Positions 1-58,094 of a stretch of 58,094 bases of DNA are shown here, piece after piece (within the stretch, counting starts at the first letter, position 1; every line of letters starts with the position of its first letter). Origin of the DNA: a virus (lineage: Duplodnaviria > Caudoviricetes). The position numbers were made by a program, and so were the translations under genes. The notes beneath the pieces were generated by a model. The model ran no database searches. It was given only the letters and a program-made list of their open reading frames with translations, and was not told the DNA's origin. The DNA is taken from IMG/VR virus record IMGVR_UViG_3300030110_001023, positions 1 through 58,094 of that record. The stretch is one strand, 5' to 3'.

Positions 1-601
1 CCATGTTGCTGACCGCATTGTATGCGCGGTCAAAACATTCGGTGGTCACCTCCGATACACGCTCCTCATTCTTGCGTTGTATCTGAGCGGTGATCTTCTG
101 CTTGTCATCCTCAGACATGGCGACCCGAAAGTCTCCAGCCTCAGGGACAGGCCGCACCTCGATGTCTGCCCAGAACATGCCAGCGACATCAGCTTGGTGG
201 GGAAACAGACCTGCGTCATACAGATCACCCAACCTGTCAGGTGCCTGATCGACAAGCTCAGGGTACACCTTGACGAAGTCAGCGACTGCGAGGTCGAAGG
301 CGTCCTTCTTCTCACGCATGACCTCAGTGAAACGCTCGTAGCCGCTGGCCTTGATGATGTACCAGCCATCCTCAGACCACGGTGCGGTCTCAGCAGCGAA
401 CACATTGTAGAGAACACCCCGTGCGGTCTTGACCGCTTTGTATTTGGAGTGGGTGGTATCGATGGTGGTCTTGAGAACCTTGACCGCCTTGTTATTGGCG
501 TTCTTCTGATCCGCGACCTCAGCCGATACAGCCTTGTCAGTTTTGGAAAAACTGGGGCACTTGACCGACAGCCTTACAAGCAATGCTTTTTCTGAAAGCA
601 T
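1..601 (-). CDS. DUF3150-like phage protein, N-terminal part (runs off the left edge)
   Basis: Not in ORF track. ATG at 601 with RBS GAAAGGAG; frame MLSEKALLVRLSVKCPSFSKTDK...ETAPWSEDGWYII...FRVAMS...RAYNAVSNM is open to the edge. Family call is by resemblance and by its context beside AAA and VWA genes. Confidence 0.7.
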   Translation of the reverse strand, partial: MLSEKALLVRLSVKCPSFSKTDKAVSAEVADQKNANNKAVKVLKTTIDTTHSKYKAVKTARGVLYNVFAAETAPWSEDGWYIIKASGYERFTEVMREKKDAFDLAVADFVKVYPELVDQAPDRLGDLYDAGLFPHQADVAGMFWADIEVRPVPEAGDFRVAMSEDDKQKITAQIQRKNEERVSEVTTECFDRAYNAVSNM

Positions 602-630
602 GATAGCTCCTTTCGATGGTTGATATTTAC

Positions 631-646
631 GAGTCACCAGTGACTC
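631..646. promoter_or_regulatory. 16-bp palindromic operator-like site, copy 1 (GAGTCACCAGTGACTC)
   Basis: 7-bp inverted arms with a 2-bp spacer; intergenic, 30 bp upstream of ATG 601; five further copies elsewhere. Confidence 0.65.
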
Positions 647-662
647 AGGATGTGATGCATTC

Positions 663-703
663 GCATCTATCAGCACACCCGCTGTGATGTGCTGGTAGAT
701 GCG
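663..703 (-). other. long intergenic RNA hairpin (processing or attenuation element)
   Basis: Arms gcatctatcagcaca / tgtgctggtagatgc lie between the AAA gene and the DUF3150-like gene. Confidence 0.45.
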
Positions 704-730
704 GGGGCGTTAGCCCCCACACCGTAGGCG

Positions 731-1717
731 TTAGCCGATCTCCACATCGGCATTGTCTGCGCGGTACTCGCATACTGCGCGGGTCTCAGCCAGATCAGGC
801 TGACGGGACAGGATGTCCCGCACTAGGACGACACTGAACTCCCGCCCCAGTCGCTTGCCGTAGATCAGCGCAGCGCCAATGGTCTCTTCGGTAACCCGCT
901 TGGCGATGTTAGACACCAAGGCGATGGTCACGTCAGTCTCTGTCGGCACCTCGCAACCCTCTGGGTCATCGAAGACCTTAGAGACAGGGATCAGCCTGTC
1001 AAAGATGCGGAGGAAGCCAGCGAACTCTGCCGCACGTCCCTCGCCAATCACCCCAGAGAATGCTGGCAAGTAGTCTTTGCATTCCAAGTGGGGAAGCAGG
1101 GCCGACACCGTAGACCATGACCGTGCGGTGGGGCACACCTCAGCCTTGGGGTCGAACTCTTGGAGTGCATCAGGGCGGTGCCTGATGTATCCGACCACAC
1201 GGTGATCGATGCCCGACTGTCCAGCCCATGCCGCCCAGTCGTCAGTGTCAGCCTCCAGTGGCACCACCGTGAGACGGTCCCGCACATGGGTTGGCAGTGG
1301 CCGACAGCCAGCCTTGTCCTTGGAGCGGTTGCCTGTGGCGATCACCGCCCAGCCCTTGGGCAGCTTGTAGCCATGCAGCTCCCGCTCCAGCAAGAGCCGC
1401 GCAGCACCGTTGAGAACGCCCTCGTCACCTTGAGGTAACTCGTCAATGAGAAGGACACCGACATCCCCGTCACGATCTGCGCGGGGTAGCCAGTCCATTG
1501 GCTTGAAGGTGGTAAGTGACCCTGACACGTCAGGGATACCCGTCCAATCCTCCCGTGCCATCGTGGGCACTGGGGCATAGATCAGGTTACCTCCCAGATC
1601 GTCAGCGACCTGACGTGCTAGGGCAGTCTTGCCCAGACCGGGTTCGCCTTCGAGGTAGGGCACACGACCCGACTTGACGATGGCGTGAACGATGCGAAGT
1701 GCTTGAGAAAATTTCAT
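731..1717 (-). CDS. MoxR/dynein-related AAA+ ATPase
   Basis: Walker A GEPGLGKT, Walker B LLIDE, sensor ATGN, arginine finger DR, helix motif PTARSW. Confidence 0.88.
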   Translation of the reverse strand: MKFSQALRIVHAIVKSGRVPYLEGEPGLGKTALARQVADDLGGNLIYAPVPTMAREDWTGIPDVSGSLTTFKPMDWLPRADRDGDVGVLLIDELPQGDEGVLNGAARLLLERELHGYKLPKGWAVIATGNRSKDKAGCRPLPTHVRDRLTVVPLEADTDDWAAWAGQSGIDHRVVGYIRHRPDALQEFDPKAEVCPTARSWSTVSALLPHLECKDYLPAFSGVIGEGRAAEFAGFLRIFDRLIPVSKVFDDPEGCEVPTETDVTIALVSNIAKRVTEETIGAALIYGKRLGREFSVVLVRDILSRQPDLAETRAVCEYRADNADVEIG

Positions 1718-1720
1718 GAG

Positions 1721-1954
1721 CTAGGCTCCTTTCAAGGCTTGTTTGGTTTGGGAAACAGTTCCTCTGAAAATCATCAGAGCAACCTTGGCGACCACGATGG
1801 CCAGTGATCTGCGGGTGGGCAGACCACGATTAGCGAGTTCATCTTGAGCAACGCTGGCAATCTCCGTGATAGATGATTGCGAGTGTAACTCGAACTCGAA
1901 GTGAGGCTGCATGTCTGATGCAATCTCTTGGATAACTTGATCTGACACAAACAT
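1721..1954 (-). CDS. hypothetical protein (77 aa)
   Basis: ATG 1954 preceded by AAGGAGG; packed in the operon. Confidence 0.65.
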   Translation of the reverse strand: MFVSDQVIQEIASDMQPHFEFELHSQSSITEIASVAQDELANRGLPTRRSLAIVVAKVALMIFRGTVSQTKQALKGA

Positions 1955-2037
1955 TGTGTCCTCCTTTCGGGTTGGTTGAGATGATGGTGTAATTGACACC
2001 GTCGAGGGCACCCAGCGGGTGCCCTCTGCGTTGGCAA

Positions 2038-2226
2038 CTATCGACGTAGCCTCGCCATCTTATTGAGGTGACGCTGGCGTTCTTTGAAACGCTGCTCACG
2101 TCGCTTGTTTCTCCGACGAACGTGGGCGATGTACGGGTCAGGTTCGTAGGTGCTGTAGAATGCCAAGGCAGCGGTGAACACTGCCGCGACAACGAAGATT
2201 GAGCAAAATAAAATGACTGCGCTCAT
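2038..2226 (-). CDS. small membrane protein (N-terminal TM, basic tail)
   Basis: Hydrophobic N-terminus, RBS GAGGA, operon packing. Confidence 0.6.
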   Translation of the reverse strand: MSAVILFCSIFVVAAVFTAALAFYSTYEPDPYIAHVRRRNKRREQRFKERQRHLNKMARLRR

Positions 2227-2228
2227 GA

Positions 2229-2474
2229 TCAGTTCCTCTCGTTTTTGGGTGTGTACTTTTCCAAGTGCAACACGTTGTTAACGTACCATCTCTTGTGCCC
2301 ATGCTTGTGAACATGCAGAGAGTGCTTGCCCTGCCTTGGCGTGGCCCTTTTGTCAGCCGTGCCATCTTTTTTTCTAGGCTGGTACAGGTTGGTGACGACA
2401 GTCCAGCCAGAGCGGCGAGGGTGTGTCTCGCGGCTCTGGCCTACGCAAACGCGACCATATGGTGTATAATTCAT
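2229..2474 (-). CDS. hypothetical basic protein
   Basis: ATGA overlap with the stop of the upstream gene at 2471-2474. Confidence 0.55.
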   Translation of the reverse strand: MNYTPYGRVCVGQSRETHPRRSGWTVVTNLYQPRKKDGTADKRATPRQGKHSLHVHKHGHKRWYVNNVLHLEKYTPKNERN

Positions 2475-2734
2475 GATCCATGCCCCCTGCGTTTGAACAC
2501 CGATTGCCAATTGTTTTTGTCTAGCAGGTGGTCAGCCAGCAGCCCCATCAGGTCTGCCTTGCAGTCCTCCAAGGTGGCAGCATATGTCACCTCAAGGACG
2601 TGGCCGTCCGCTGTGACATAGCCCGCCCAGCGCAGGTCTTCGAAACCTTCGGCAGCCTCATGATCTGGGGCAGCGTTGTATTGCCGAAACTGCGGCTGCG
2701 TAACGTCCATCGACGTGAAATATTTTTTGTTCAT
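2471..2734 (-). CDS. hypothetical protein (87 aa)
   Basis: Start MNKKYF at 2734 with RBS GAAAGG, just downstream of the hammerhead cleavage site. Confidence 0.6.
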   Translation of the reverse strand: MNKKYFTSMDVTQPQFRQYNAAPDHEAAEGFEDLRWAGYVTADGHVLEVTYAATLEDCKADLMGLLADHLLDKNNWQSVFKRRGHGS

Positions 2735-2770
2735 GTTATGCCTTTCGGTTGATGTTGATATTGAGTGGTT

Positions 2771-2839
2771 ACCCAGAACGCTGCGCAGCGGTGCAGCGTT
2801 TTCGGCCCGTACCAATGGGCGCTCATCAGTGGGCTTGGT
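2771..2839 (-). ncRNA. type I hammerhead ribozyme
   Basis: Minus strand: ACCAA-GCCCA-CUGAUGA-GCGCCC(AUUGGUAC)GGGCC-GAAA-ACGCUGC(ACCGCUGC)GCAGCGU-UC^UGGGU. Full core, three stems, and loop II UUGGU complementary to the 5' ACCAA. Confidence 0.88.
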
Positions 2840-3026
2840 CTGCCTCGCATTCGGGGCAGATCGTGGGGGTCTCGAATGCCTCTGTGTAATACGCGCAGTC
2901 GTCGCAATCGGGGTCGATCTCAATGATCTCAACCTCCCCAGCTTCCTCCATGTGATCCATGAAGTTTTCAGGGGTAAGCTTGGACAGATCAACGTCAGCG
3001 GTAAGCGCATAAGTTTTGTATTTCAT
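2826..3026 (-). CDS. small acidic zinc-ribbon protein
   Basis: CDDC...CPEC; RBS GGAG; its TGA stop lies inside the ribozyme CUGAUGA. Confidence 0.65.
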   Translation of the reverse strand: MKYKTYALTADVDLSKLTPENFMDHMEEAGEVEIIEIDPDCDDCAYYTEAFETPTICPECEADQAH

Positions 3027-3043
3027 TTCAACTCCAATCGTAA

Positions 3044-3059
3044 AAGTTACCAGTGACTC
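3044..3059. promoter_or_regulatory. 16-bp palindromic site, copy 2 (AAGTTACCAGTGACTC)
   Basis: Matches consensus RAGTYAC-CA-GTRACTY; 18 bp upstream of ATG 3026. Confidence 0.6.
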
Positions 3060-3061
3060 AG

Positions 3062-3088
3062 AAAGTGTGCCGCCCCCGAAGGGGCGGC
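3062..3088 (-). terminator. GC-rich hairpin with UUCG tetraloop (terminator or attenuator)
   Basis: GCCGCCCC-UUCG-GGGGCGGC just after the stop at 3095; U tail is weak. Confidence 0.55.
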
Positions 3089-3094
3089 GTTGGA

Positions 3095-3706
3095 TTAGAC
3101 TGCCTGTTTGAGGACAGTCACGTTGTCGTCGTATCCGCTGCCGACCTTGGCGAGGTCAGCGGCGTTCATGACCAATTCCCAGACAGCGGTCTTGCCTTCG
3201 ACGGTATCGACATCGTGACCGTTTGCCTTGGCAAGCTTCTGGGCGAGGGCGACGATCTGCTCTTCGTCGCTCAATTCCTCCTTCGGGTTCAGGAAGGCGA
3301 CCAGCTTGTTGAAGCTGTTGATCTGCAACTCTTCGCAGCGTTGGTTGATCGTGTCGCGAAACTTTCCAGCGGTCAGGTTGTCGCTGTAGCCGCCGTCTCT
3401 TGCGACGTTGATGGTGCTGAGAAATTCAGGATGCTTGGCAAGCTTGAGGGCATTTTCTGCCAGCTTCTTGCCTTTGCCGCTGGCATTCTTCTGCCCCAGC
3501 ACATCGAAGCACACCGCATCGCGGAACTGGCCAGCCTTCTTGCTGCCCTTGCGGAAGTTTTGGCGAGCAGCTTCAACCGCCAGAATGCCGATCAAGGTGA
3601 ACTTGTCAGCCTCGACAAATTGGTTGGCGCGGAATTCAGAGATCTCAGCTTCTTTGCGTGAGATGTCGGCGGCAACGTGAGCAGCTTGTTTGATGATGTT
3701 TGTCAT
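3095..3706 (-). CDS. hypothetical early protein (203 aa), first gene of the early operon
   Basis: Start MTNIIKQ with RBS GAAGGGA; strong GC3 codon bias. Confidence 0.75.
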   Translation of the reverse strand: MTNIIKQAAHVAADISRKEAEISEFRANQFVEADKFTLIGILAVEAARQNFRKGSKKAGQFRDAVCFDVLGQKNASGKGKKLAENALKLAKHPEFLSTINVARDGGYSDNLTAGKFRDTINQRCEELQINSFNKLVAFLNPKEELSDEEQIVALAQKLAKANGHDVDTVEGKTAVWELVMNAADLAKVGSGYDDNVTVLKQAV

Positions 3707-3730
3707 GTGTGTGATCCCTTCGATCTGAAT

Positions 3731-3800
3731 GTGTTTCGACCATGCTTGGTCCAAGGGGCAGGATTGCCCTCATCAGGGGTGCAGCATCAGCACCCGACAC
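3731..3800 (-). ncRNA. type III hammerhead ribozyme with an extra hairpin inserted in the core
   Basis: GUGUC^-GGGUGC(UGAUGCU)GCACCC-CUGAUGA-[GGGCA(AUCC)UGCCC-CUUG]-GACCA(AGCA)UGGUC-GAAACAC. Loop I AUGCU is complementary to AGCAU at loop II. Confidence 0.78.
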
Positions 3801-4103
3801 TTGCGGGGTGGTCTCTCAGTCAGCAACCGTTCGTTGCCTCGCACGTCCAGCTTGCTATCGCTGGGGGTTCGCGGCGGCAGAGATGCCATCCCCGTGATCC
3901 CCGTTGCCAACGTCCTTTCATCGTTGTCGTGCAGCGGGGTCTCATTCTGGCGGGGCTGTCACACCTTACGCTCTTGTCCGTTTGCTAGGACACCAGCCTC
4001 ATTGCTGATGCGGTCCCTTCCCGGATCGCTGTGGTTCGCTTTGTTTCTGGCTAGCGTTGCCCAGGGGGTGGCCCCCGCTCGGTGACTGATGTGTGCCGCC
4101 GAG
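3796..4103 (-). ncRNA. putative ~300-nt structured non-coding RNA or leader
   Basis: No credible ORF; many hairpins and possible 5'/3' closing pairing; lies between a promoter and a hammerhead cleavage site. Confidence 0.55.
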
Positions 4104-4109
4104 GACCTA

Positions 4110-4138
4110 CGTATGGACCCACTCGGTGGGCTTGTCAA
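4110..4138 (-). promoter_or_regulatory. sigma70-type early promoter
   Basis: TTGACA-17 bp-CATACG on the minus strand; a -10 element lacking the last T is common in Alphaproteobacteria. Confidence 0.55.
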
Positions 4139-4410
4139 ACACAAATTGTCACATTATCGAAAGTTTTTTTTCGGTTTGAGGCTGACTGCGGGTTTCCAGT
4201 GGCCACCAAATCCCATTGATTTGTCAGGAGGTGAATTTAAGCTGTTTTTTGGACGTGTTTTTACATGCGCTGCGAATCGTCATTTTCGGGCGCTACTGCA
4301 AGAAAAACGAGTCGGTTTGTAATGTTTTCAATGACTTAATTTTTTTGGGGGTGTCGACCTGGTCGCACGCTGCGTGTCACCCCCGCCTGAAAAAAAAGGA
4401 GATTCGGACG

Positions 4411-4905
4411 ATGTCAGACAGTTTGAAAGTGGTGGGCGGCACCGACAGCGGCAAGCAGTCGGGCAAGGGGCGGCGACCACTGACCAGCAAGCAGCAAGCA
4501 TTCGCTGATGGCGTGGTCTCAGGTCTCAGTCAGAGCGAGGCCTACCGGCGCGCTTATTCGGCGGCTGGCATGAAAGCATCAGCCGTCCATACCGAGAGTA
4601 GTTCATTGGCTGGCCACCCTGAGGTTGCCCGAAGGATCGCGGCGGGATTAGCGGAGAAGGAACGGGCAGCACAGCGCAGCGGCCTCTCCCGAAGGGCAAT
4701 GGTTCTTGAGAGGCTGGAGCATGAGGCCATGAACGCAGAGGCTGATGCGGCCCGTATCAGGGCACTCGAATTGCTGGGGAAACATGAGCGGCTATTTGTG
4801 GACGTGGTAGAGAATCAGGAAGACACTCGGACGGCTGATGACCTGCGCGAAGAACTGGCGCAGCGGCTGGCTGGTCTGACCGCTCGAGTCACTGGTGACT
4901 CGTAG
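4411..4905 (+). CDS. terS: terminase small subunit
   Basis: LTSKQQAFADGVVSGLSQSEAYRRAY HTH and RIRALELLGKH motif; ATG 4411 with RBS AAGGAG. Confidence 0.85.
   Translation: MSDSLKVVGGTDSGKQSGKGRRPLTSKQQAFADGVVSGLSQSEAYRRAYSAAGMKASAVHTESSSLAGHPEVARRIAAGLAEKERAAQRSGLSRRAMVLERLEHEAMNAEADAARIRALELLGKHERLFVDVVENQEDTRTADDLREELAQRLAGLTARVTGDS
4886..4901. promoter_or_regulatory. 16-bp palindromic site, copy 3 (GAGTCACTGGTGACTC)
   Basis: Exact reverse complement of copy 1 (match extends to 19 bp); overlaps the last codons of terS. Confidence 0.6.
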
Positions 4906-46450: not shown

Positions 46451-46656
46451 AGACATATGAAGTTGGTGTGTATAACAAGTATATACGAGAACGGGTACGC
46501 AATGGTGATGATGTTGACCCAGCAGAGGCTGCTTGGGAAAACATACACTACTTTGATGTTAAAGCAGAAAACGAAGCAGACGCTAAAAGAAAAATATCGT
46601 TTGAGTATAAACCAGAAAAAGGTTTCGTCATTGACTGCATAAATGTTTACAAATAG
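46447..46656 (+). CDS. small hypothetical protein
   Basis: YEVGVYNK..RE.VR.G...W...HY..V.A....A...Y.P.KGFVI; ATGA overlap with the upstream gene. Confidence 0.6.
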   Translation: MKTYEVGVYNKYIRERVRNGDDVDPAEAAWENIHYFDVKAENEADAKRKISFEYKPEKGFVIDCINVYK

Positions 46657-53970: not shown

Positions 53971-54028
53971 TGTGTATTCTCCTTAGTACATTGTACGTCT
54001 GATCCGACGTTAGGTTGGTGGTGTTCAT
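53828..54028 (-). CDS. small hypothetical protein
   Basis: ATG 54028 with RBS AAGGAG; W...YW..V...L.R pattern. Confidence 0.55.
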   Translation of the reverse strand: MNTTNLTSDQTYNVLRRIHNATTVRELCDNRGNEWGSGYWHTVETSLKRQLNPSRRQDQDAYYSGP

Positions 54029-54054
54029 GTTCACTCCTTGTATCACACGGGATG

Positions 54055-54420
54055 TCATTCTTCAACACTGGGTGTGTCTTTGTTGGTTACAAGATGCACA
54101 ATCTCAGCCGACTTGAGCGTTGTCTTTTCCTCTGACATGTGTGCAGCAACCCAATCTTCAAACACTGGCGAGTGCATGATGTCTTCGTAACCCGTCATGT
54201 CCAGGTTGATCTGAAGGTGGTCGCCATTGATGTCCACGCTAGACACATCACATGTGGCAGATATGCCATCAAGCTGACCGATAAATACCATCATGTCTTC
54301 GATACGTTTTTCAAAGATCATGGCAAGATCAGCAAGGCTAAGTTGAGCTATCAAACTGCCCAGAGAATCAGCATGGATAGATCGGGGTGCAGACAGGTAT
54401 TTGTGGCTACTAATATACAT
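54055..54420 (-). CDS. hypothetical acidic protein
   Basis: Probable start MYISSHK overlapping the upstream stop. Confidence 0.55.
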   Translation of the reverse strand: MYISSHKYLSAPRSIHADSLGSLIAQLSLADLAMIFEKRIEDMMVFIGQLDGISATCDVSSVDINGDHLQINLDMTGYEDIMHSPVFEDWVAAHMSEEKTTLKSAEIVHLVTNKDTPSVEE

Positions 54421-54736
54421 CGGGCACGTCCTTCCAGTTGACCCAGCCTTTGCCCCAGCATCTGTCGCATTCGATGGTGACCTCATTGTAGCCAGCCCAA
54501 GGCCCATTTTCTGTGTGGCCTCCGACTTCTACTTCGCTGTCAACTCTGCCCGTGCCGCCGCAATCGGTACACTCAAAGTCAAAGCTGGGTATGGCATCCC
54601 AACTCTCACGCCATCCATGTACGATGTTTGGTTCAACGCCATGTTCAATGGCAAGCTTCACTAGATTGATCGTGTCGTTCTCAACGTCCACGATCTTTGC
54701 TTCTAGCTCCGCAATTTCTTCCTTAACGGTTAGCAT
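54410..54736 (-). CDS. protein with DnaJ-type zinc-finger repeats
   Basis: CTDCGGTG and CDRCWGKG; RBS AGGAGG. Confidence 0.68.
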   Translation of the reverse strand: MLTVKEEIAELEAKIVDVENDTINLVKLAIEHGVEPNIVHGWRESWDAIPSFDFECTDCGGTGRVDSEVEVGGHTENGPWAGYNEVTIECDRCWGKGWVNWKDVPDVY

Positions 54737-55913
54737 GTAATGATCCTCCTGACTTGTTTGTAAGAACATAGTCCTTCGTAATGGTGCCCAACTCTTTGTT
54801 ACCTCGCTTGTGAGCGCGAACCCACACGCGAGTACCGCCCCTAAGTCTACGGAAATGACCCCGCACATCATGTAATCTTTTGATGCCCTCGGTCTCCCTA
54901 AACTCACGGGGAATAATTGATATGCCTCTGGGCTTTGGCAAGTCAATTTCGATCTGGATGTGCGAGTTACCCCGCCTGAATTTACCAAACTTGTATTGTT
55001 TGTCAGTGCTTGCTTGGCGTGGAGACTGGATAACCCAGTCAAAGTTAAGCAACGCCAGAACAGTAATCAGGAACCGTGCGTCACCCCGAATGCTATCCTG
55101 CCCCACTGCTTGTATTCTAGCAGCAGTCTCTTCGTTCCATTCAGCATTGGCAACGTCCAGATAAAAGTCGATGCCCGGTCCTTGCAGTAAACGAATGTGA
55201 TTGCACAACTGGAACAGTGCTTCTCCAGTTTCTTTTGGGTTGGTCTTCTGATTATGCTGCGCCCACCATCCACCCAGTGCATCAATGCTGACGTTATGTT
55301 CAGCCTTGATATGCTGAAACAACTCATCATCAGACACAGATGTCTGACCTGTAAAGTCCTTGAGGAAATAACGGTGATGCGCCTCAGTAAATCCTGATCC
55401 CTCTTCACACACAGCAAACTGAATTGACAAGGGTGCAGCACCGATCATTTCTTTACCCGAAGCAGGGTCATTGAAGGGGACAAAGGGTGTGCCAATAAAA
55501 CTGTCACCCTCATACCCCGTGTGGGGTGCGTCTTCTAACAGATATCCCACGGTGTGGGATATGGCTGACCAGTCAATGGGATTATCCTGAGCAAACTTGT
55601 CCCTTGCTACCCGCTGCAAAACCTCCTGACGCAGGTGTTCATTCCACTCTATCCAAGTCAAATCGTTTGGCATACGAGCGAAGGGCAGCATCCGCAACAG
55701 TTCGCTGCAAGTCGCGATCATGCTCTGCTCCATTGCAAACTCAAGAAAGCGATCATCCAGCACGAACCGTGTTGCCTTACGCATGTCGATATATTTCTGG
55801 TGGCAGCGATCCTTGAACGCTTGGATGTGGCGCACCTCTTGTGCTGCGAAGACACCCTTCTTAGGGTTGTTCAAGGCAGCGATGACATCGTCAGCTAGAT
55901 TGAACTTAGCCAT
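54723..55913 (-). CDS. conserved phage early protein (396 aa)
   Basis: R.P....WIEW in the N-terminal part; basic C-terminal H.VRGHFR...VWVR.H.RG....G motif; RBS AGGAGG. Confidence 0.75.
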   Translation of the reverse strand: MAKFNLADDVIAALNNPKKGVFAAQEVRHIQAFKDRCHQKYIDMRKATRFVLDDRFLEFAMEQSMIATCSELLRMLPFARMPNDLTWIEWNEHLRQEVLQRVARDKFAQDNPIDWSAISHTVGYLLEDAPHTGYEGDSFIGTPFVPFNDPASGKEMIGAAPLSIQFAVCEEGSGFTEAHHRYFLKDFTGQTSVSDDELFQHIKAEHNVSIDALGGWWAQHNQKTNPKETGEALFQLCNHIRLLQGPGIDFYLDVANAEWNEETAARIQAVGQDSIRGDARFLITVLALLNFDWVIQSPRQASTDKQYKFGKFRRGNSHIQIEIDLPKPRGISIIPREFRETEGIKRLHDVRGHFRRLRGGTRVWVRAHKRGNKELGTITKDYVLTNKSGGSLHANR

Positions 55914-55930
55914 ACAAACCTCCTATTTAT

Positions 55931-55946
55931 GAGTCATCAGTAACTT
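55931..55946. promoter_or_regulatory. 16-bp palindromic site, copy 6 (GAGTCATCAGTAACTT)
   Basis: One mismatch to consensus; 18 bp upstream of ATG 55913, the same spacing as copy 2. Confidence 0.55.
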
Positions 55947-56102
55947 GTAAGTAAATGGGCGGCATCCACATCAGTGAACACCGCCCATGCAAATCGCGAG
56001 AATCGAAAGGAACCCGCACCGTAAACCACAATGCGAGTAGAAAAGCTCCTCCATTTGCTGACGGGGTTATAATCGGGGCACTCGCCGTCTAATCCCCATC
56101 AG

Positions 56103-56426
56103 CTAGGGACCGACGTACCGCCAGACCTTGATCTCTCTACTGTGATTAGTCTTTCGCTGAGAGTTTACACGCTCACCCGTGAACTCCCAGTCCTTGCCCC
56201 TGAAGATAGAGCCAGCAGCATTGCCCAAGCTATCGGTGATACCCTCTCTGGCAAACGCCCTGCTTACATCATCAGCAGTCACGGTGCGGCTGTCTCGCAG
56301 CATGGCGATCTGCTTTGCCACATGCCTTGCGTGGGTCAGCAGGTCATGCTTGCTGGCAGCAGCAGATGCCATGCCCTCTTCTTTGAGGCGCTGTGCCTCA
56401 GCTAGATCAAACAAGTCCATTGTCAT
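56103..56426 (-). CDS. hypothetical phage protein
   Basis: K.EGM..A...VTADDV...NAAGSIF...TG..V.S.R..NH...I.VW. Confidence 0.68.
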   Translation of the reverse strand: MTMDLFDLAEAQRLKEEGMASAAASKHDLLTHARHVAKQIAMLRDSRTVTADDVSRAFAREGITDSLGNAAGSIFRGKDWEFTGERVNSQRKTNHSREIKVWRYVGP

Positions 56427-56566
56427 CCCTTCCATGCTATGATGCCTTGCTCAACGCTGGGTGCGAAGTGAAGCAGCCCAACGGTGATTGTAGTCCACAA
56501 AAGAATAGCGATGAAGGAGAGAGCGATCTCTCTCCAATCACGCTTGGCCCAGTCATGTTGTCTCAT
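56423..56566 (-). CDS. 47-aa membrane peptide
   Basis: RBS GGAGG; one TM segment; ATGA overlap; not in ORF track. Confidence 0.5.
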   Translation of the reverse strand: MRQHDWAKRDWREIALSFIAILLWTTITVGLLHFAPSVEQGIIAWKG

Positions 56567-56579
56567 CTGTCACCTCCAA

Positions 56580-57830
56580 TCAGGCAGCGACTTGGACAAC
56601 TGTTGCCCAAGTCGCGTCCTCTTCGATTGCATCCAACCATCTCTGGTCCCGCACACATGCTGCAAGCAGCGTCGGCAGTGCTGGCTCAGGGATGTCTTTA
56701 TAGATATCCTCCATGTCAGAGAAGATGATGATAGCATCAACGTCGAGTTGTTGCTCATCGACATACTCCAGAGCCTTGCAGGTGTTTGTCCCACCGTAGT
56801 AGCGGGTGCGGTCAATCTCATCACCGGGGTCAACGACCTGATGCTCCTTGACCGTGTGGGTGAACTTGACCACATGGCTGGTGATGTCGAACTCTGAGGT
56901 GATCGACTGCAACTCCTCGCAGAACTGGGCGAACATCTCGTCATCGACTGATGATGACACGTCAATCAGAACTGCAATCTCACCGCCCACGTCACGGCGG
57001 CGGGTAGGCAGCGGCACACCCACCGCACGGGACCGACGACCAAGGCGCTGGTAGGACGTGCCAGACGGGCGACCATCCAGCAAGAACCTGCGAAGCACAC
57101 CCCGCCAGTCAACGACTGGCTTGCGTAGCAGCGTGATGTGCTGCTTGAAGGGGCTGTCTTCCTTGCCAGCCTCGCCGCTGATCATGGCGGCATTGAGGAC
57201 GATCTCAGTCCACTTGTCCTCCTCCTCCTTGATCTCTGAGGCGGTGAGACCAGAGCCGTCATCAGATGTGCCATCGATCACCACCCCGTGGCCCTGCATG
57301 TCCACTGGCTGGTCCTTGCCCGACTGGGCAGGGGCATCCCCAGAGCCGCTGTTTTCTTGGGGTTGATCGTCACCACCCTCAGCATCACCCTGAGAGTCAC
57401 CCTCCGATTCGCCAGTACCCTCTGGCTCTGGCTGGTCATCGAACAATTTGCGGTAGATATCTTCCGCTGACTGACCGCGATATGCCAAGTCGATCAGGCC
57501 GTCCTCAGGTAGGGAGAACCCAGCATCAACTAGGATGCTGTTGATGGCGTAGTCAGCAGCCGTGTTCCAGTTATTGGGATCACGCTGCCCCCTGCGAAGA
57601 TGGTGCTTAAAGATCACATGGCACACCTCATGAGCGAGGACGCCCTTGAGGTGAGCGTTAGTGTGGCCATCCACAAACGCAGGGTTGAACCAGATAGAGG
57701 AACCATCTGTCGCCATCGTGTCAAACTGATCTGACTCGATCAGGTTGAGCCGCATGGCGATGTTGCCGAAGAACGGATTGTCCAGCAAAAGCTGCGTCCG
57801 TGCTGTCACGATCTTGTGTTGTGCTGACAT
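56580..57830 (-). CDS. DUF2201-type metallopeptidase + VWA domain protein
   Basis: TMATDG, LAHEVCH (HExxH), WN.AADYAIN, acidic linker, MIDAS DVSSS, GGT, FSD. Confidence 0.88.
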   Translation of the reverse strand: MSAQHKIVTARTQLLLDNPFFGNIAMRLNLIESDQFDTMATDGSSIWFNPAFVDGHTNAHLKGVLAHEVCHVIFKHHLRRGQRDPNNWNTAADYAINSILVDAGFSLPEDGLIDLAYRGQSAEDIYRKLFDDQPEPEGTGESEGDSQGDAEGGDDQPQENSGSGDAPAQSGKDQPVDMQGHGVVIDGTSDDGSGLTASEIKEEEDKWTEIVLNAAMISGEAGKEDSPFKQHITLLRKPVVDWRGVLRRFLLDGRPSGTSYQRLGRRSRAVGVPLPTRRRDVGGEIAVLIDVSSSVDDEMFAQFCEELQSITSEFDITSHVVKFTHTVKEHQVVDPGDEIDRTRYYGGTNTCKALEYVDEQQLDVDAIIIFSDMEDIYKDIPEPALPTLLAACVRDQRWLDAIEEDATWATVVQVAA

Positions 57831-57841
57831 GTCAATACCTC

Positions 57842-58094
57842 CTACTGACCAATAAAGTCATCGATTTGGTTCATGATCTCGCGGGCATCTGCCGCGACTT
57901 CCTGACGCTTGGCACCATCCTCCTTGAGGGTGGCAGCATCAGTCTCAGTGAGACGCTGGCCGATCTCGCGGGCCAACTGCTCAAGGCGAGGGTCATCACC
58001 CACGTTGAGGGACGGCAGCAACTCTGCGATGTCTCGCACGTTGCCGACCAAACTGTCGTAAAGCTTGGCACCCTTCTTGTCGGGATCGTATGCC
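57842..58094 (-). CDS. DUF3150-like protein, C-terminal part (continuation of 1-601)
   Basis: Frame open from the right edge: AYDPDKKGAKLYDSLVGNVRDIAELLPSLNVGDDPRL...REIMNQIDDFIGQ*. Confidence 0.7.
   Translation of the reverse strand, partial: AYDPDKKGAKLYDSLVGNVRDIAELLPSLNVGDDPRLEQLAREIGQRLTETDAATLKEDGAKRQEVAADAREIMNQIDDFIGQ

What the first reader, a model, noticed from the sequence alone, without database searches (positions are those of the whole stretch)
3796..4138. Promoter -> ~300-nt structured RNA -> ribozyme: candidate self-releasing phage ncRNA
Seen: a TTGACA promoter (4110-4138, minus strand) followed by ~305 nt without a credible ORF and dense in hairpins (about 3991-4010, 3975-3992, 3899-3939, 3847-3864, 3823-3837). 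GCGGGG/CCCCGC could pair the two ends (4073-4078 with 3803-3808). The segment ends at the hammerhead cut. Inference: one of the first phage products is a discrete folded RNA cut off the early mRNA, possibly a decoy, antitoxin mimic, anti-defence or antitermination RNA. I do not recognise it as tRNA, tmRNA, RNase P or SRP. This is the best candidate for an undescribed system in the window.
Basis: partly seen in the sequence, partly recalled or inferred. Interest (0 to 1): 0.85.

Follow-up and report, generated by a model that had tools for sequence, protein, structure and literature searches.

The report
Knot-headed phage leader RNA, ribozyme-ended
The gene-free stretch is the folded, roughly 310-base leader of a marine phage's leftward operon: a conserved RNA knot at the front, a swappable folded middle and a self-cutting hammerhead at the end, a layout shared by many uncultured phages and of unknown function.

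Summary
Observation largely confirmed. Window 3796-4138 (minus strand) holds a perfect -35 (TTGACA) with a weak -10, then about 308 nt with no credible ORF, ending at a type III hammerhead (3728-3803, cut after C3796). Rfam 15 names nothing except a sub-threshold hammerhead hit.

Relatives from viral and marine metagenome contigs show a modular leader:
- promoter;
- 5' hairpins plus a 25-nt H-type pseudoknot (4037-4061; both stems covary across 19 leaders);
- a swappable cargo (about 3801-4032);
- a hammerhead directly before the RBS of a conserved 203-aa gene.

The 3' 150 nt of this window's cargo form a six-helix domain ("B1") found in 9 leaders, with 11-15 of 30-32 pairs showing compensatory changes. 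The proposed pairing of the two ends is not supported: a local closing helix covaries instead. Folding-energy excess is not significant (z -1.4). No RNA-seq holder exists, so cleavage and stability remain inferred.

In two other phages (L352, L354) the same pseudoknot head leads RNAs that end at a terminator-like site instead of a hammerhead.

Best reading (0.45): a discrete early RNA made from a knot-cargo-ribozyme cassette. A cis-acting transcriptional role is the main rival.

The scan has noted leader-plus-hammerhead layouts before on other DNA.

The parts
4110..4138 (-). Sigma70-like promoter: -35 TTGACA (4133-4138), 17-nt spacer holding an inverted repeat (4118-4130), weak -10 CATACG (4110-4115). 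The transcription start is inferred at about 4101-4107.
   Evidence: Sequence. The scan tool found no promoter because the -10 lacks the final T. Relatives have stronger promoters at the same position.
4078..4103 (-). 5' hairpin P0: 9-position stem with one C-A mismatch and an 8-nt loop.
   Evidence: RNAalifold on the window, L197 and L198. All predicted pairs are kept, but changes are one-sided (wobble) only, with no compensatory pair.
4064..4076 (-). Small G/C hairpin P0' (GGGGG-CCA-CCCCC).
Evidence: invariant in the three sequences that have it.
4037..4061 (-). H-type pseudoknot (PK). Stem 1 is 4059-4061 with 4049-4051. The 7-nt loop has its CGCU (4053-4056) pairing with AGCG (4037-4040) across an A-rich linker (4041-4048).
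   Evidence: Ungapped alignment of 19 leaders. Counts: 96.1% of cells paired against 14-38% when partners are slid; 6 of 8 pairs have two-sided changes, including CGCG/CGCG <-> CGCU/AGCG <-> CACG/CGUG. Instances were picked with a regex that demands pairing.
3801..4032 (-). Swappable 'cargo' between the pseudoknot and the hammerhead.
   Evidence: blastn of the window against relatives. L198 is homologous at 4384-4033 and 3800-3242 but not in between. L213 shares only 4061-4028 and the region from 3800 downstream. L224 and L226 share only 3902-3770.
3976..4010 (-). Two cargo hairpins: M1 (4004-4010 with 3991-3997, loop AAUGAG) and M2 (3988-3991 with 3976-3979, loop UAGCAAAC).
   Evidence: Sequence. 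L197 and one metagenome contig change 4006, 3993 and 3977 in ways that keep pairing through wobble. Only two close relatives exist, so support is weak.
3804..3938 (-). B1 domain, six helices. Pa 3931-3938/3900-3907; Pb 3922-3926/3908-3912; closing helix Pc 3890-3894/3804-3808; H1 3884-3887/3876-3879; H2 3860-3864/3847-3851 (loop GAUAGCAA); H3 3833-3837/3823-3827.
   Evidence: Covariance model R1 scores the window at 135.7 bits over 3796-3951. Pair counts: MAFFT alignment 81.9% paired, 11/32 pairs compensatory; model-fitted alignment 86.9%, 15/30. Slid controls give 34-48%.
3728..3803 (-). Type III hammerhead. Stem III is 3797-3800 with 3730-3733; cleavage falls after C3796; stem I is 3790-3795 with 3777-3782; the core CUGAUGA is 3770-3776. 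An extra hairpin plus CUUG is inserted before stem II (3738-3751), followed by GAAA.
   Evidence: Rfam RF00008, 25.4 bits, E 0.008, below the gathering score. In 12 long-form relatives 98% of cells pair and 9/21 pairs are compensatory. Canonical short forms occupy the same position in L028, L216, L217 and L218.
3715..3721 (-). Shine-Dalgarno-like GAAGGGA, 8 nt before the ATG of the first gene.
   Evidence: Sequence; conserved as GAAGGGA or GAGG in relatives.
3095..3706 (-). First gene of the leftward operon (P0001, 203 aa, no family).
   Evidence: Translation. No Pfam or PHROG match. Only viral hypothetical-protein clusters in the Atlas. Relatives always sit downstream of a hammerhead.

Best explanation
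The stretch is the 5' leader of the phage's leftward operon, which I take to be early because it is read from a host-type promoter. It belongs to an uncatalogued family of modular phage leader RNAs.

Host RNA polymerase starts near 4103. The first roughly 65 nt fold into two hairpins and a compact H-type pseudoknot, the conserved 'head'. The next roughly 230 nt are a structured 'cargo' that related phages exchange wholesale. Here the cargo consists of two small hairpins plus the six-helix B1 domain, whose closing helix ends 3 nt before the ribozyme.

The type III hammerhead then cuts after C3796. That would release a roughly 308-nt RNA with a 2',3'-cyclic phosphate. The downstream mRNA would keep a 5'-OH, the folded ribozyme body and an exposed ribosome-binding site.

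Shown:
- the anatomy;
- covariation in the head, in B1 and in the ribozyme;
- the mosaic boundaries;
- recurrence in other phages.

Inferred:
- the ribozyme is active;
- the released leader is a stable product with a job of its own (a cargo RNA acting on a host or phage factor);
- the ribozyme also insulates translation of the first gene from whichever cargo sits upstream.

Its molecular target is unknown.
For: 1. HAMMERHEAD RECURRENCE. I passed 27 of the 31 metagenome loci encoding a P0001 relative; the other four start inside the gene. All 27 have a hammerhead core between the available upstream DNA and the gene. The same holds for the viral loci.

2. HAMMERHEAD STEMS COVARY. 98% of cells pair against 30-48% when partners are slid; 9/21 pairs are compensatory; 0/500 shuffles reach the observed values. 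Canonical forms sit at the same site in relatives.

3. PSEUDOKNOT. Both stems covary in 19 leaders. The CGCU/AGCG and CACG/CGUG variants show that the loop pairs with the downstream tetranucleotide. It also turns up in further phage groups: 7 new loci among the 16 stretches, and 6 new loci with a fully paired stem 1 among the 21 stretches.

4. B1 DOMAIN. It is found in 9 leaders only. Compensatory changes occur in 11/32 pairs of the unfitted alignment and 15/30 of the fitted one. G-U pairs fit the minus strand only.

5. CARGO SWAPPING with sharp boundaries at the pseudoknot and the hammerhead, while the flanking genes stay homologous. An alternative cargo, module C, also shows compensatory pairs (15/57). 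Different cargo before the same gene argues against the cargo being that gene's cis-regulator.

6. DEFINED 3' END. In L352 and L354 the unit promoter - pseudoknot - cargo ends at a terminator-like site directly before the RBS. A defined 3' end just upstream of the first gene is therefore the common theme.

7. COMPOSITION AND CODING. The RNA is U-poor (35 of 310 nt) and non-coding.
Against: - No RNA evidence exists: no listed sequencing run holding the stretch is RNA.
- The hammerhead scores below Rfam's gathering threshold. It carries an 18-nt insertion next to the catalytic core, so its activity is unproven.
- The -10 element is weak.
- The folding-energy excess of the leader is not significant, and the antisense strand folds no worse.
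- The cargo segment 4032-3939 has only one close relative plus one contig, so it carries no covariation.
- Pseudoknot instances were chosen with a regex that demands pairing. B1 rests on 9 related sequences, and its structure was derived from the window itself.
- Terminator-ended relatives fit a cis-acting attenuation or antitermination device at least as well.
- I found no target: no long complementarity to the phage's own genome, and the host is unknown.
Confidence: 0.45

Rival explanations
1. Cis-acting transcription device. The nascent pseudoknot head, perhaps with the cargo, acts on the transcribing RNA polymerase or blocks Rho. Transcription of the long untranslated leader and of downstream terminators would then succeed (put-like processive antitermination or attenuation). 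On this view the hammerhead only trims the spent leader.
For: The head sits directly after a host-type promoter in nearly all leaders. In L352 and L354 the leader ends at a terminator-like hairpin plus U run abutting the RBS, so the first gene can only be expressed by read-through. By eye, similar hairpins close the leaders of L347, L355, L365, L366 and L367. Earlier scan notes, which I did not check, describe pseudoknots right after early promoters in T7-like phages and compare them to put RNA. The T7 A1 leader does contain a loop CCGG / downstream CCGG arrangement like that of L222 and L224.
Against: A ribozyme that severs the RNA from the polymerase fits poorly with a device that works through the nascent transcript. 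The pseudoknot (25 nt) looks nothing like the two-hairpin put fold. No intrinsic terminator is predicted on the minus strand in 3000-4138 of this window. The scan tool confirmed a terminator in only 2 of the 4 terminator-type leaders I gave it. Wholesale cargo exchange is unexplained.
Confidence: 0.22
2. Passive leader plus mRNA 5'-end remodelling. The point is the hammerhead, one of at least two in this operon. It gives each cistron its own 5'-OH, structured 5' end and independent stability. The leader is simply what lies upstream, kept structured and U-poor to escape Rho and RNase E.
For: Hammerheads of the same type lie between coding genes in many viral contigs, each preceded by a small G/C hairpin. 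A second, type I-like hammerhead is visible at about 2771-2839 in this window (first-stage note e1-6240558). Perreault et al. 2011 (PMC3088659, passages read) describe hammerheads flanking phage genes, and a haloarchaeal virus transcript whose 5' end maps at a hammerhead cut.
Against: A promoter placed next to the gene would need neither leader nor ribozyme. The pseudoknot head is conserved across phage groups with different downstream genes. B1 keeps six helices through compensatory change, which neutral spacer sequence would not do.
Confidence: 0.17
3. Regulated ribozyme or riboswitch-like leader. The cargo domains are sensors for a metabolite or protein, and their folding controls hammerhead cleavage (or, in other phages, termination). 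This would set the stability or translation of the first mRNA.
For: The closing helix of B1 ends 3 nt before the very short (4-bp) stem III, so it could stack on stem III and tune it. In the intercistronic hammerheads a hairpin likewise abuts stem III. Expression platforms differ between phages (ribozyme or terminator) as they do for riboswitches.
Against: No Rfam aptamer matches this leader at E<=10 or 12 related loci at E<=0.1. Different cargo precedes the same gene, unlike riboswitches, which track their genes. No alternative pairing that hides the ribozyme is conserved.
Confidence: 0.08
4. DNA-level element (operators, origin or packaging site), or a hidden small protein gene.
For: The region lies in the 700-bp divergent gap next to terS. 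An inverted repeat sits inside the promoter spacer. A 118-aa antisense frame is open.
Against: Compensatory changes that preserve helices, with G-U pairs on one strand only, point to RNA. The antisense frame is not conserved as protein.
Confidence: 0.05

Closest known systems
Hammerhead ribozymes flanking genes in phages and prophages, and 'HHphage' of haloviruses HF1/HF2 (Perreault et al. 2011, PMC3088659; passages read; supplements not seen)
   Same: A self-cleaving hammerhead inside a phage polycistronic transcript, just upstream of a gene. In HF2 the 5' end of a major transcript maps at the cut.
   Different: That work describes the ribozymes, not a conserved structured RNA upstream of them. 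Here the ribozyme closes a leader with a conserved pseudoknot head and exchangeable folded cargo. The ribozyme itself carries an extra hairpin between CUGAUGA and stem II.
Theta (HDV-like) ribozymes next to phage tRNA genes (Kienbeck et al. 2024, PMC10879173; title and start of abstract seen in the listing; the role in tRNA end formation is my recollection)
   Same: A small self-cleaving ribozyme used by phages at the end of a non-coding RNA gene.
   Different: A different ribozyme class, and the partner there is a tRNA of known function. Here the released RNA matches no known family.
HK022 putL/putR antiterminator RNAs (recalled; no call)
   Same: A folded RNA made immediately after an early host-type promoter, ahead of the early genes.
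   Different: put is two stem-loops of about 70 nt that stay with the polymerase. Here the fold is a 25-nt H-type pseudoknot followed by variable cargo, and the RNA is cut from the transcript.
Leader-derived immunity RNAs: P4 CI, P1/P7 c4, N15 CB (recalled; Rfam search gave no such match)
   Same: A small stable RNA processed out of the untranslated leader of the operon.
   Different: Those RNAs are released by RNase P and pair with repeated target sites in the same operon. I found no complementarity above chance (best 14 nt; 8 of 100 shuffles did as well), and processing here is by ribozyme.
Synthetic ribozyme insulators such as RiboJ (recalled; no call)
   Same: A hammerhead placed between promoter/5' UTR and RBS, so that downstream translation no longer depends on what lies upstream.
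   Different: RiboJ is an engineered part. Here the arrangement is natural, and the removed piece is itself conserved and structured.
preQ1-I-type and other compact H-type pseudoknots with an A-rich third loop (recalled; no Rfam match)
   Same: Hairpin whose loop pairs with a tetranucleotide after an A-rich linker.
   Different: The loops are too short for the preQ1 pocket. There is no sequence match, and the position is at the start of phage leaders rather than before queuosine genes.

Membership tests
Hammerhead ribozyme, type III (Rfam RF00008) | Conserved core CUGANGA ... GAAA and an NUH cleavage triplet | tested here: met
   CUGAUGA, GAAA and GUC are present and invariant in 12 relatives.
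Hammerhead ribozyme, type III (Rfam RF00008) | Three helices around the core, with stem III open and stems I and II closed | tested here: met
   98% of cells paired; stems I, II and III each show compensatory change.
Hammerhead ribozyme, type III (Rfam RF00008) | Score at or above the curated gathering threshold | tested here: not met
   25.4 bits against 48.5, with no hit at gathering. The shortfall is explained by the 18-nt insertion before stem II; short canonical forms exist at the same site in relatives.
Hammerhead ribozyme, type III (Rfam RF00008) | Self-cleavage | not testable with these tools
   Needs an in vitro or in vivo cleavage assay.
HK022 put-type processive antiterminator RNA | Two adjacent stem-loops of about 70 nt just downstream of an early promoter | tested here: not met
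   The position is met, but the fold is an H-type pseudoknot. The put architecture is recalled, not fetched.
HK022 put-type processive antiterminator RNA | Suppresses downstream terminators in cis | not testable with these tools
   Only indirect: terminator-like sites end the leaders of L352 and L354.
Leader-derived antisense immunity RNA (P4 CI / P1 c4 type) | Complementary target sites elsewhere in the same operon or genome | tested here: not met
   The longest complementary match to the rest of the window is 14 nt; 8 of 100 shuffled leaders reach 14 or more.
Riboswitch or allosteric ribozyme | A conserved aptamer that travels with the regulated gene | tested here: not met
   No Rfam aptamer match. 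Different cargo lies upstream of orthologous genes.
CsrB/RsmZ-type protein sponge | Many GGA motifs, enriched and placed in hairpin loops | tested here: not met
   7 GGA observed against 7.9 expected from shuffles.
tRNA / tmRNA / tRNA-like | Cloverleaf detectable by ARAGORN or Rfam | tested here: not met
   0 genes in the window; no Rfam hit.
'Early-leader pseudoknot' of T7-like phages (earlier scan notes only, unpublished and unchecked) | Hairpin whose loop pairs with a downstream tetranucleotide, placed right after an early host-type promoter | tested here: inconclusive
   The T7 A1 leader shows a hairpin loop CCGG with a downstream CCGG, resembling the head of L222/L224/L226. The window's head has a different sequence. 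No common model was built.

The most novel reading that the evidence does not exclude
Promoter - pseudoknot - cargo - ribozyme is a natural RNA expression cassette. The pseudoknot head and the ribozyme (or a terminator in other phages) are constant 'ends' that stabilise and release whatever folded RNA lies between them. Marine phages shuffle these cargo RNAs, like accessory genes, as first-expressed trans-acting effectors against host factors or defences. The hammerhead doubles as a natural insulator, so that swapping cargo does not disturb the early genes.
Probability: 0.25. Interest if true: 0.85.

Novelty: new variant of a known kind. Interest (0 to 1): 0.62.

Why it matters
Hammerheads in phage operons have been known since 2011, but what they are for is still open. 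This locus and its relatives give a concrete, testable layout: a conserved pseudoknot head, exchangeable folded RNA modules and a ribozyme (or terminator) that fixes the 3' end just before the first gene.

If the released RNAs act in trans, phages would have a class of first-expressed RNA effectors that gene-centred annotation cannot see. If they act in cis, this would be a new RNA-based way of controlling early transcription in abundant marine phages. Either way the pseudoknot head and the B1 domain are candidates for new RNA families. The ribozyme placement is also a natural counterpart of engineered ribozyme insulators.

Tried and rejected
1. RFAM. The whole window at gathering gave 0 hits. 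Region 3500-4600 at E<=10 gave only the weak hammerhead. Region 1-3720 at E<=1 gave only a chance PhotoRC-I fragment. Twelve related loci at E<=0.1 gave only one weak hammerhead.

2. DNA SIMILARITY. blastn of 3700-4420 against the phage collection found no match. There is only one copy in the window's own record.

3. EXACT-WORD SCAN of viral contigs with 22 nt of the ribozyme: 0 hits.

4. B1 PATTERN SCAN of viral contigs: 72 stretches. Only contigs I already held carried the domain; one further hit (L177) was by chance.

5. HOST SEARCH. No P0001 relatives were found in 185,579 species genomes. All looked coding, for example a conserved enzyme gene of Acidimicrobiia and a gene of Atopobium, except one doubtful case (L268). 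This was a dead end. The nearest cultured phages by large terminase are Pelagibacter phages at about 53% identity. P0001 has no match in cultured phages.

6. EXPRESSION. No RNA holder was listed for 3500-4500. Laying four DNA runs gave only contigs, one of them an L197-like variant. Nothing can be said about transcript ends.

7. SPONGE IDEA. GGA motifs are not enriched.

8. ANTISENSE REGULATOR IDEA. No complementarity to the phage genome above chance.

9. CODING IDEA. Rejected.

10. PAIRING OF THE TWO ENDS. Rejected in favour of helix Pc and hairpin P0'.

11. boxA. A lead from an earlier scan note: I saw no GCUCUU-type boxA by eye.

12. TERMINATOR SCANS. Those of L365 and L355 did not report the hairpins I see by eye, so only L352 and L354 count as tool-supported.

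13. tRNA/tmRNA. None found.

14. FIRST GENE. No Pfam or PHROG family. The Atlas gives only viral hypothetical-protein clusters and a weak DUF3102 lead at 0.87.

15. LITERATURE. Four searches found no description of a conserved structured leader upstream of phage hammerheads. Supplements, including those of PMC3088659, were closed and may list such ribozymes.

ROWS DROPPED BEFORE COUNTS.
- One weak model hit (L226 3-118, 16.5 bits) was left out by re-running at E<=1e-5.
- 8 of 27 regex hits were left out of the pseudoknot alignment: L003 (a truncated duplicate) and L033, L102, L109, L117, L138, L159 and window 46545-46586 (not in a leader).
- The inner pairs of the extra ribozyme hairpin were not counted, because two length variants are out of register.
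Full report
WHERE IT SITS

The window is a complete 58,094-bp uncultured viral record. The nearest cultured relatives by large terminase are Pelagibacter phages at about 53% identity. Related contigs come from marine metagenomes.

The finding lies in a 700-bp gap between two divergent units. On the plus strand is the small terminase gene at 4411-4905 (Pfam Terminase_2, PHROG 51). On the minus strand is a leftward operon that starts with a 203-aa gene of no known family (3706-3095). That operon continues through a small ORF, an AAA ATPase and further genes.

THE OBSERVATION

The -35 is a perfect TTGACA (4138-4133), followed by a 17-nt spacer and CATACG (4115-4110). The scan tool reports no promoter because the -10 lacks the terminal T. 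Related phages carry TTGAC-N17-TATA-type promoters at the same position (partly read by eye).

About 308 nt follow without a credible ORF. The longest frame is antisense, and it is broken by amino-acid-changing substitutions and a frameshift in the near-identical leader L197. The RNA strand is 31% G, 31% C, 26% A and only 11% U.

Rfam recognises only a sub-threshold type III hammerhead at 3728-3803 (25.4 bits, E 0.008, gathering score 48.5), whose GUC triplet places the cut after C3796.

The single-sequence folding energy of the leader is not exceptional. It gives z -1.40, with 10 of 100 shuffles as good, and the antisense strand does better at z -2.21. By that criterion alone the finding would fail.

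RELATIVES

Protein-guided searches with the terminase and with the first gene returned 10, 2 and 9 viral loci and 31 metagenome loci.

blastn shows that in most relatives only the ribozyme and the gene are alignable to the window. I gave the 27 metagenome loci that have upstream DNA; the other four start inside the gene. Each of the 27 has a hammerhead core upstream of the gene.

A pattern scan found 106 stretches with this kind of type III hammerhead in viral contigs, amounting to 77 distinct sequences across all loci I held. They occur in two settings:
- between coding genes, preceded by a small G/C hairpin;
- at the end of long non-coding leaders.

The ribozyme comes in three forms at the same site:
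- canonical;
- with one extra U after CUGAUGA;
- with an inserted hairpin plus CUUG, as in this window.

For 12 long-form sequences 98% of cells pair, against 30-48% when partners are slid. Nine of 21 pairs show compensatory change, and 0 of 500 shuffles reach the observed values. The proposed loop I / loop II contact is compatible with the data but does not vary, so it is untested.

THE LEADER IS A MOSAIC

Pairwise blastn shows the following.
- L198 matches the window at 4384-4033 (promoter, 5' hairpins, pseudoknot) and again at 3800-3242 (ribozyme and gene), but not in between.
- L213 shares only 4061-4028 and the region from 3800 downstream.
- L224 and L226 share only 3902-3770.
- L197 is collinear throughout at 83% identity.

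The unit is therefore head - cargo - ribozyme, with the cargo (about 4032-3801) exchanged as a block.

THE HEAD

A hairpin with a 3-5 bp stem has a 7-nt loop. That loop contains CGCG (here CGCU). It is followed by an A-rich linker (consensus NAAACAA) and then CGCG (here AGCG).

In an ungapped alignment of 19 leaders, 96.1% of cells pair against 14-38% when slid. All four stem-1 pairs and two stem-2 pairs change on both sides. The variants CGCU/AGCG (6 sequences) and CACG/CGUG (1 sequence) rule out a mere palindrome.

One caveat applies. The instances were collected with a regex that requires pairing, so only the diversity of pair types is informative, not the percentage paired.

By my reading, of about 24 distinct leaders in the protein-defined set:
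- 17 have this pseudoknot;
- 3 (L222, L224, L226) have a CCGG-type variant;
- 4 lack it.

In the window it lies at 4037-4061. It is preceded by two hairpins (4078-4103 and 4064-4076) that are shared only with L197 and L198 and supported only by wobble changes.

Pattern scans then found the same head in further phage groups with unrelated downstream genes.
- (16 stretches): 7 new loci in leader context (two of them the same sequence), 1 contig I already held, and 8 hits in other contexts.
- (21 stretches): 8 on contigs I already held, and 6 of 13 new loci with a fully paired stem 1.

THE CARGO OF THIS WINDOW

The 3' 150 nt align to eight other leaders. I derived six helices from the window, built a covariance model (R1) and searched about 115 sources. 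Only those nine leaders match, at 91-165 bits.

Pair counts:
- MAFFT alignment, not fitted to the structure: 81.9% of cells pair against 34-48% slid; 11 of 32 pairs change on both sides; 0-1 of 500 shuffles reach the observed values.
- Model-fitted alignment: 86.9% paired and 15 of 30 pairs compensatory.

The closing helix Pc (3890-3894 with 3804-3808) covaries: CGGGG/CCCCG, CGAGG/CCUCG, CCGGG/CCCGG and CCGAGA/UCUCGG. G-U pairs occur in several helices, which favours the minus strand as the folded one.

The 5' part of the cargo (4032-3939) contains two hairpins. These are kept in L197 and in one metagenome contig by wobble-compatible changes only, so their support is weak.

GCAA is over-represented: 7 observed against 2.1 expected. 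AGCA(A)-type loops recur in the cargo hairpins and in ribozyme stem II. I cannot explain this.

An alternative cargo, module C in L002, L198 and others, also shows compensatory pairs (15 of 57 predicted).

HOW IT MOST LIKELY WORKS

Shown: the anatomy above.

Inferred:
- transcription from the host-type promoter starts near 4103;
- the head and cargo fold;
- the ribozyme cuts after C3796.

That would free a roughly 308-nt RNA with a cyclic-phosphate 3' end adjacent to helix Pc. The mRNA would be left with a 5'-OH, the ribozyme body and a free GAAGGGA ribosome-binding site 8 nt before the ATG.

Three observations make me favour a discrete RNA product over a mere untranslated region:
- the head is conserved across phage groups;
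- the cargo is structured yet exchanged in front of orthologous genes;
- in L352 and L354 the same head-plus-cargo unit ends at a terminator-like hairpin and U run that abuts the RBS, so a defined 3' end just before the first gene is the shared feature.

Those terminators equally suggest a cis-acting read-through or attenuation device, which is my main rival. Only 2 of the 4 terminator-type leaders I scanned were confirmed by the tool.

I found no target. There is no complementarity to the phage genome above chance, no GGA enrichment, no tRNA-like fold and no Rfam family. No RNA data exist for this sequence.

COMPARISON WITH WHAT IS KNOWN

Hammerheads that flank phage genes, and one at the 5' end of a major halovirus transcript, were described by Perreault et al. 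2011 (PMC3088659; passages read). The ribozyme placement is a known kind.

I found no description of the pseudoknot head, the B1 domain or cargo exchange in Rfam 15 or in four full-text searches. Supplements were closed.

Earlier notes of this scan, all unchecked AI notes, report leader-plus-hammerhead layouts in other uncultured phages (e1-5356096, e1-6127680, e1-5979797). They also report a pseudoknot right after early promoters in T7-like phages (e1-1925022 and others). I checked only that the T7 A1 leader has a hairpin-loop CCGG with a downstream CCGG, resembling the head of L222 and L224. The window's head differs in sequence.

VERDICT

This is a real, structured, non-coding leader RNA of an uncatalogued modular family, ending at a credible but untested hammerhead. 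The proposed trans function is possible but unproven.

Noticed in passing
window 2771-2839 (-): A second, type I-like hammerhead lies after the small ORF 3026-2826. It has CUGAUGA, a bulged stem II, GAAA, a long stem III hairpin and a UUC triplet, and the ORF's stop codon lies inside CUGAUGA. Rfam did not report it at E<=1. I saw it only by eye, following first-stage note e1-6240558.
   Followed up: partly
window 3752-3769 (-), and the same site in L002, L008, L019-L021, L197-L199, L214, L222, L227: The hammerhead carries an 18-19-nt hairpin plus CUUG between CUGAUGA and stem II. Relatives have either nothing or a single U there. The outer pairs of the inserted hairpin covary. An insertion next to A9/G10.1 is unusual and may affect catalysis.
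   Followed up: partly
window 4186-4197 (+), and upstream of the promoter in L007, L008, L019-L021, L028, L215-L227: A conserved 12-nt word (CTGCGGGTTTCC) lies between terS and the leftward promoter. In the window, L197 and L198 it is inverted relative to the other phages. It may be a protein-binding site for packaging or regulation.
   Followed up: no
window 4118-4130 (-): An inverted repeat (CCCAC-CGA-GTGGG) fills the promoter spacer. Relatives have GTGGGA..GATGGG-type words there. This is a candidate operator.
   Followed up: no
window 3069-3088 (-): A strong G/C hairpin without a U run follows the first gene directly. It may be a 3' stabiliser or a weak terminator between cistrons.
   Followed up: no
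L049:568-1680 (-) and L007 about 1013-1622 (-): In L049 the gene after the hammerhead is a 371-aa fusion. Its N-terminal part resembles a separate 179-aa protein that follows a second hammerhead in L007, and its C-terminal part resembles P0001.
   Followed up: no
L347, L352, L354, L355 (about 20-40 nt before the terminator-like hairpin): A conserved word of the form CUG-WWUU-GAAAC precedes the closing hairpin of the terminator-ended leaders. It recalls a hammerhead core but lacks G8/A9 and a stem II. Unexplained.
   Followed up: no
window 1-4900 and 54000-58094: The leftward operon region has 55-57% G+C against 42-49% in the rest of the genome.
   Followed up: no
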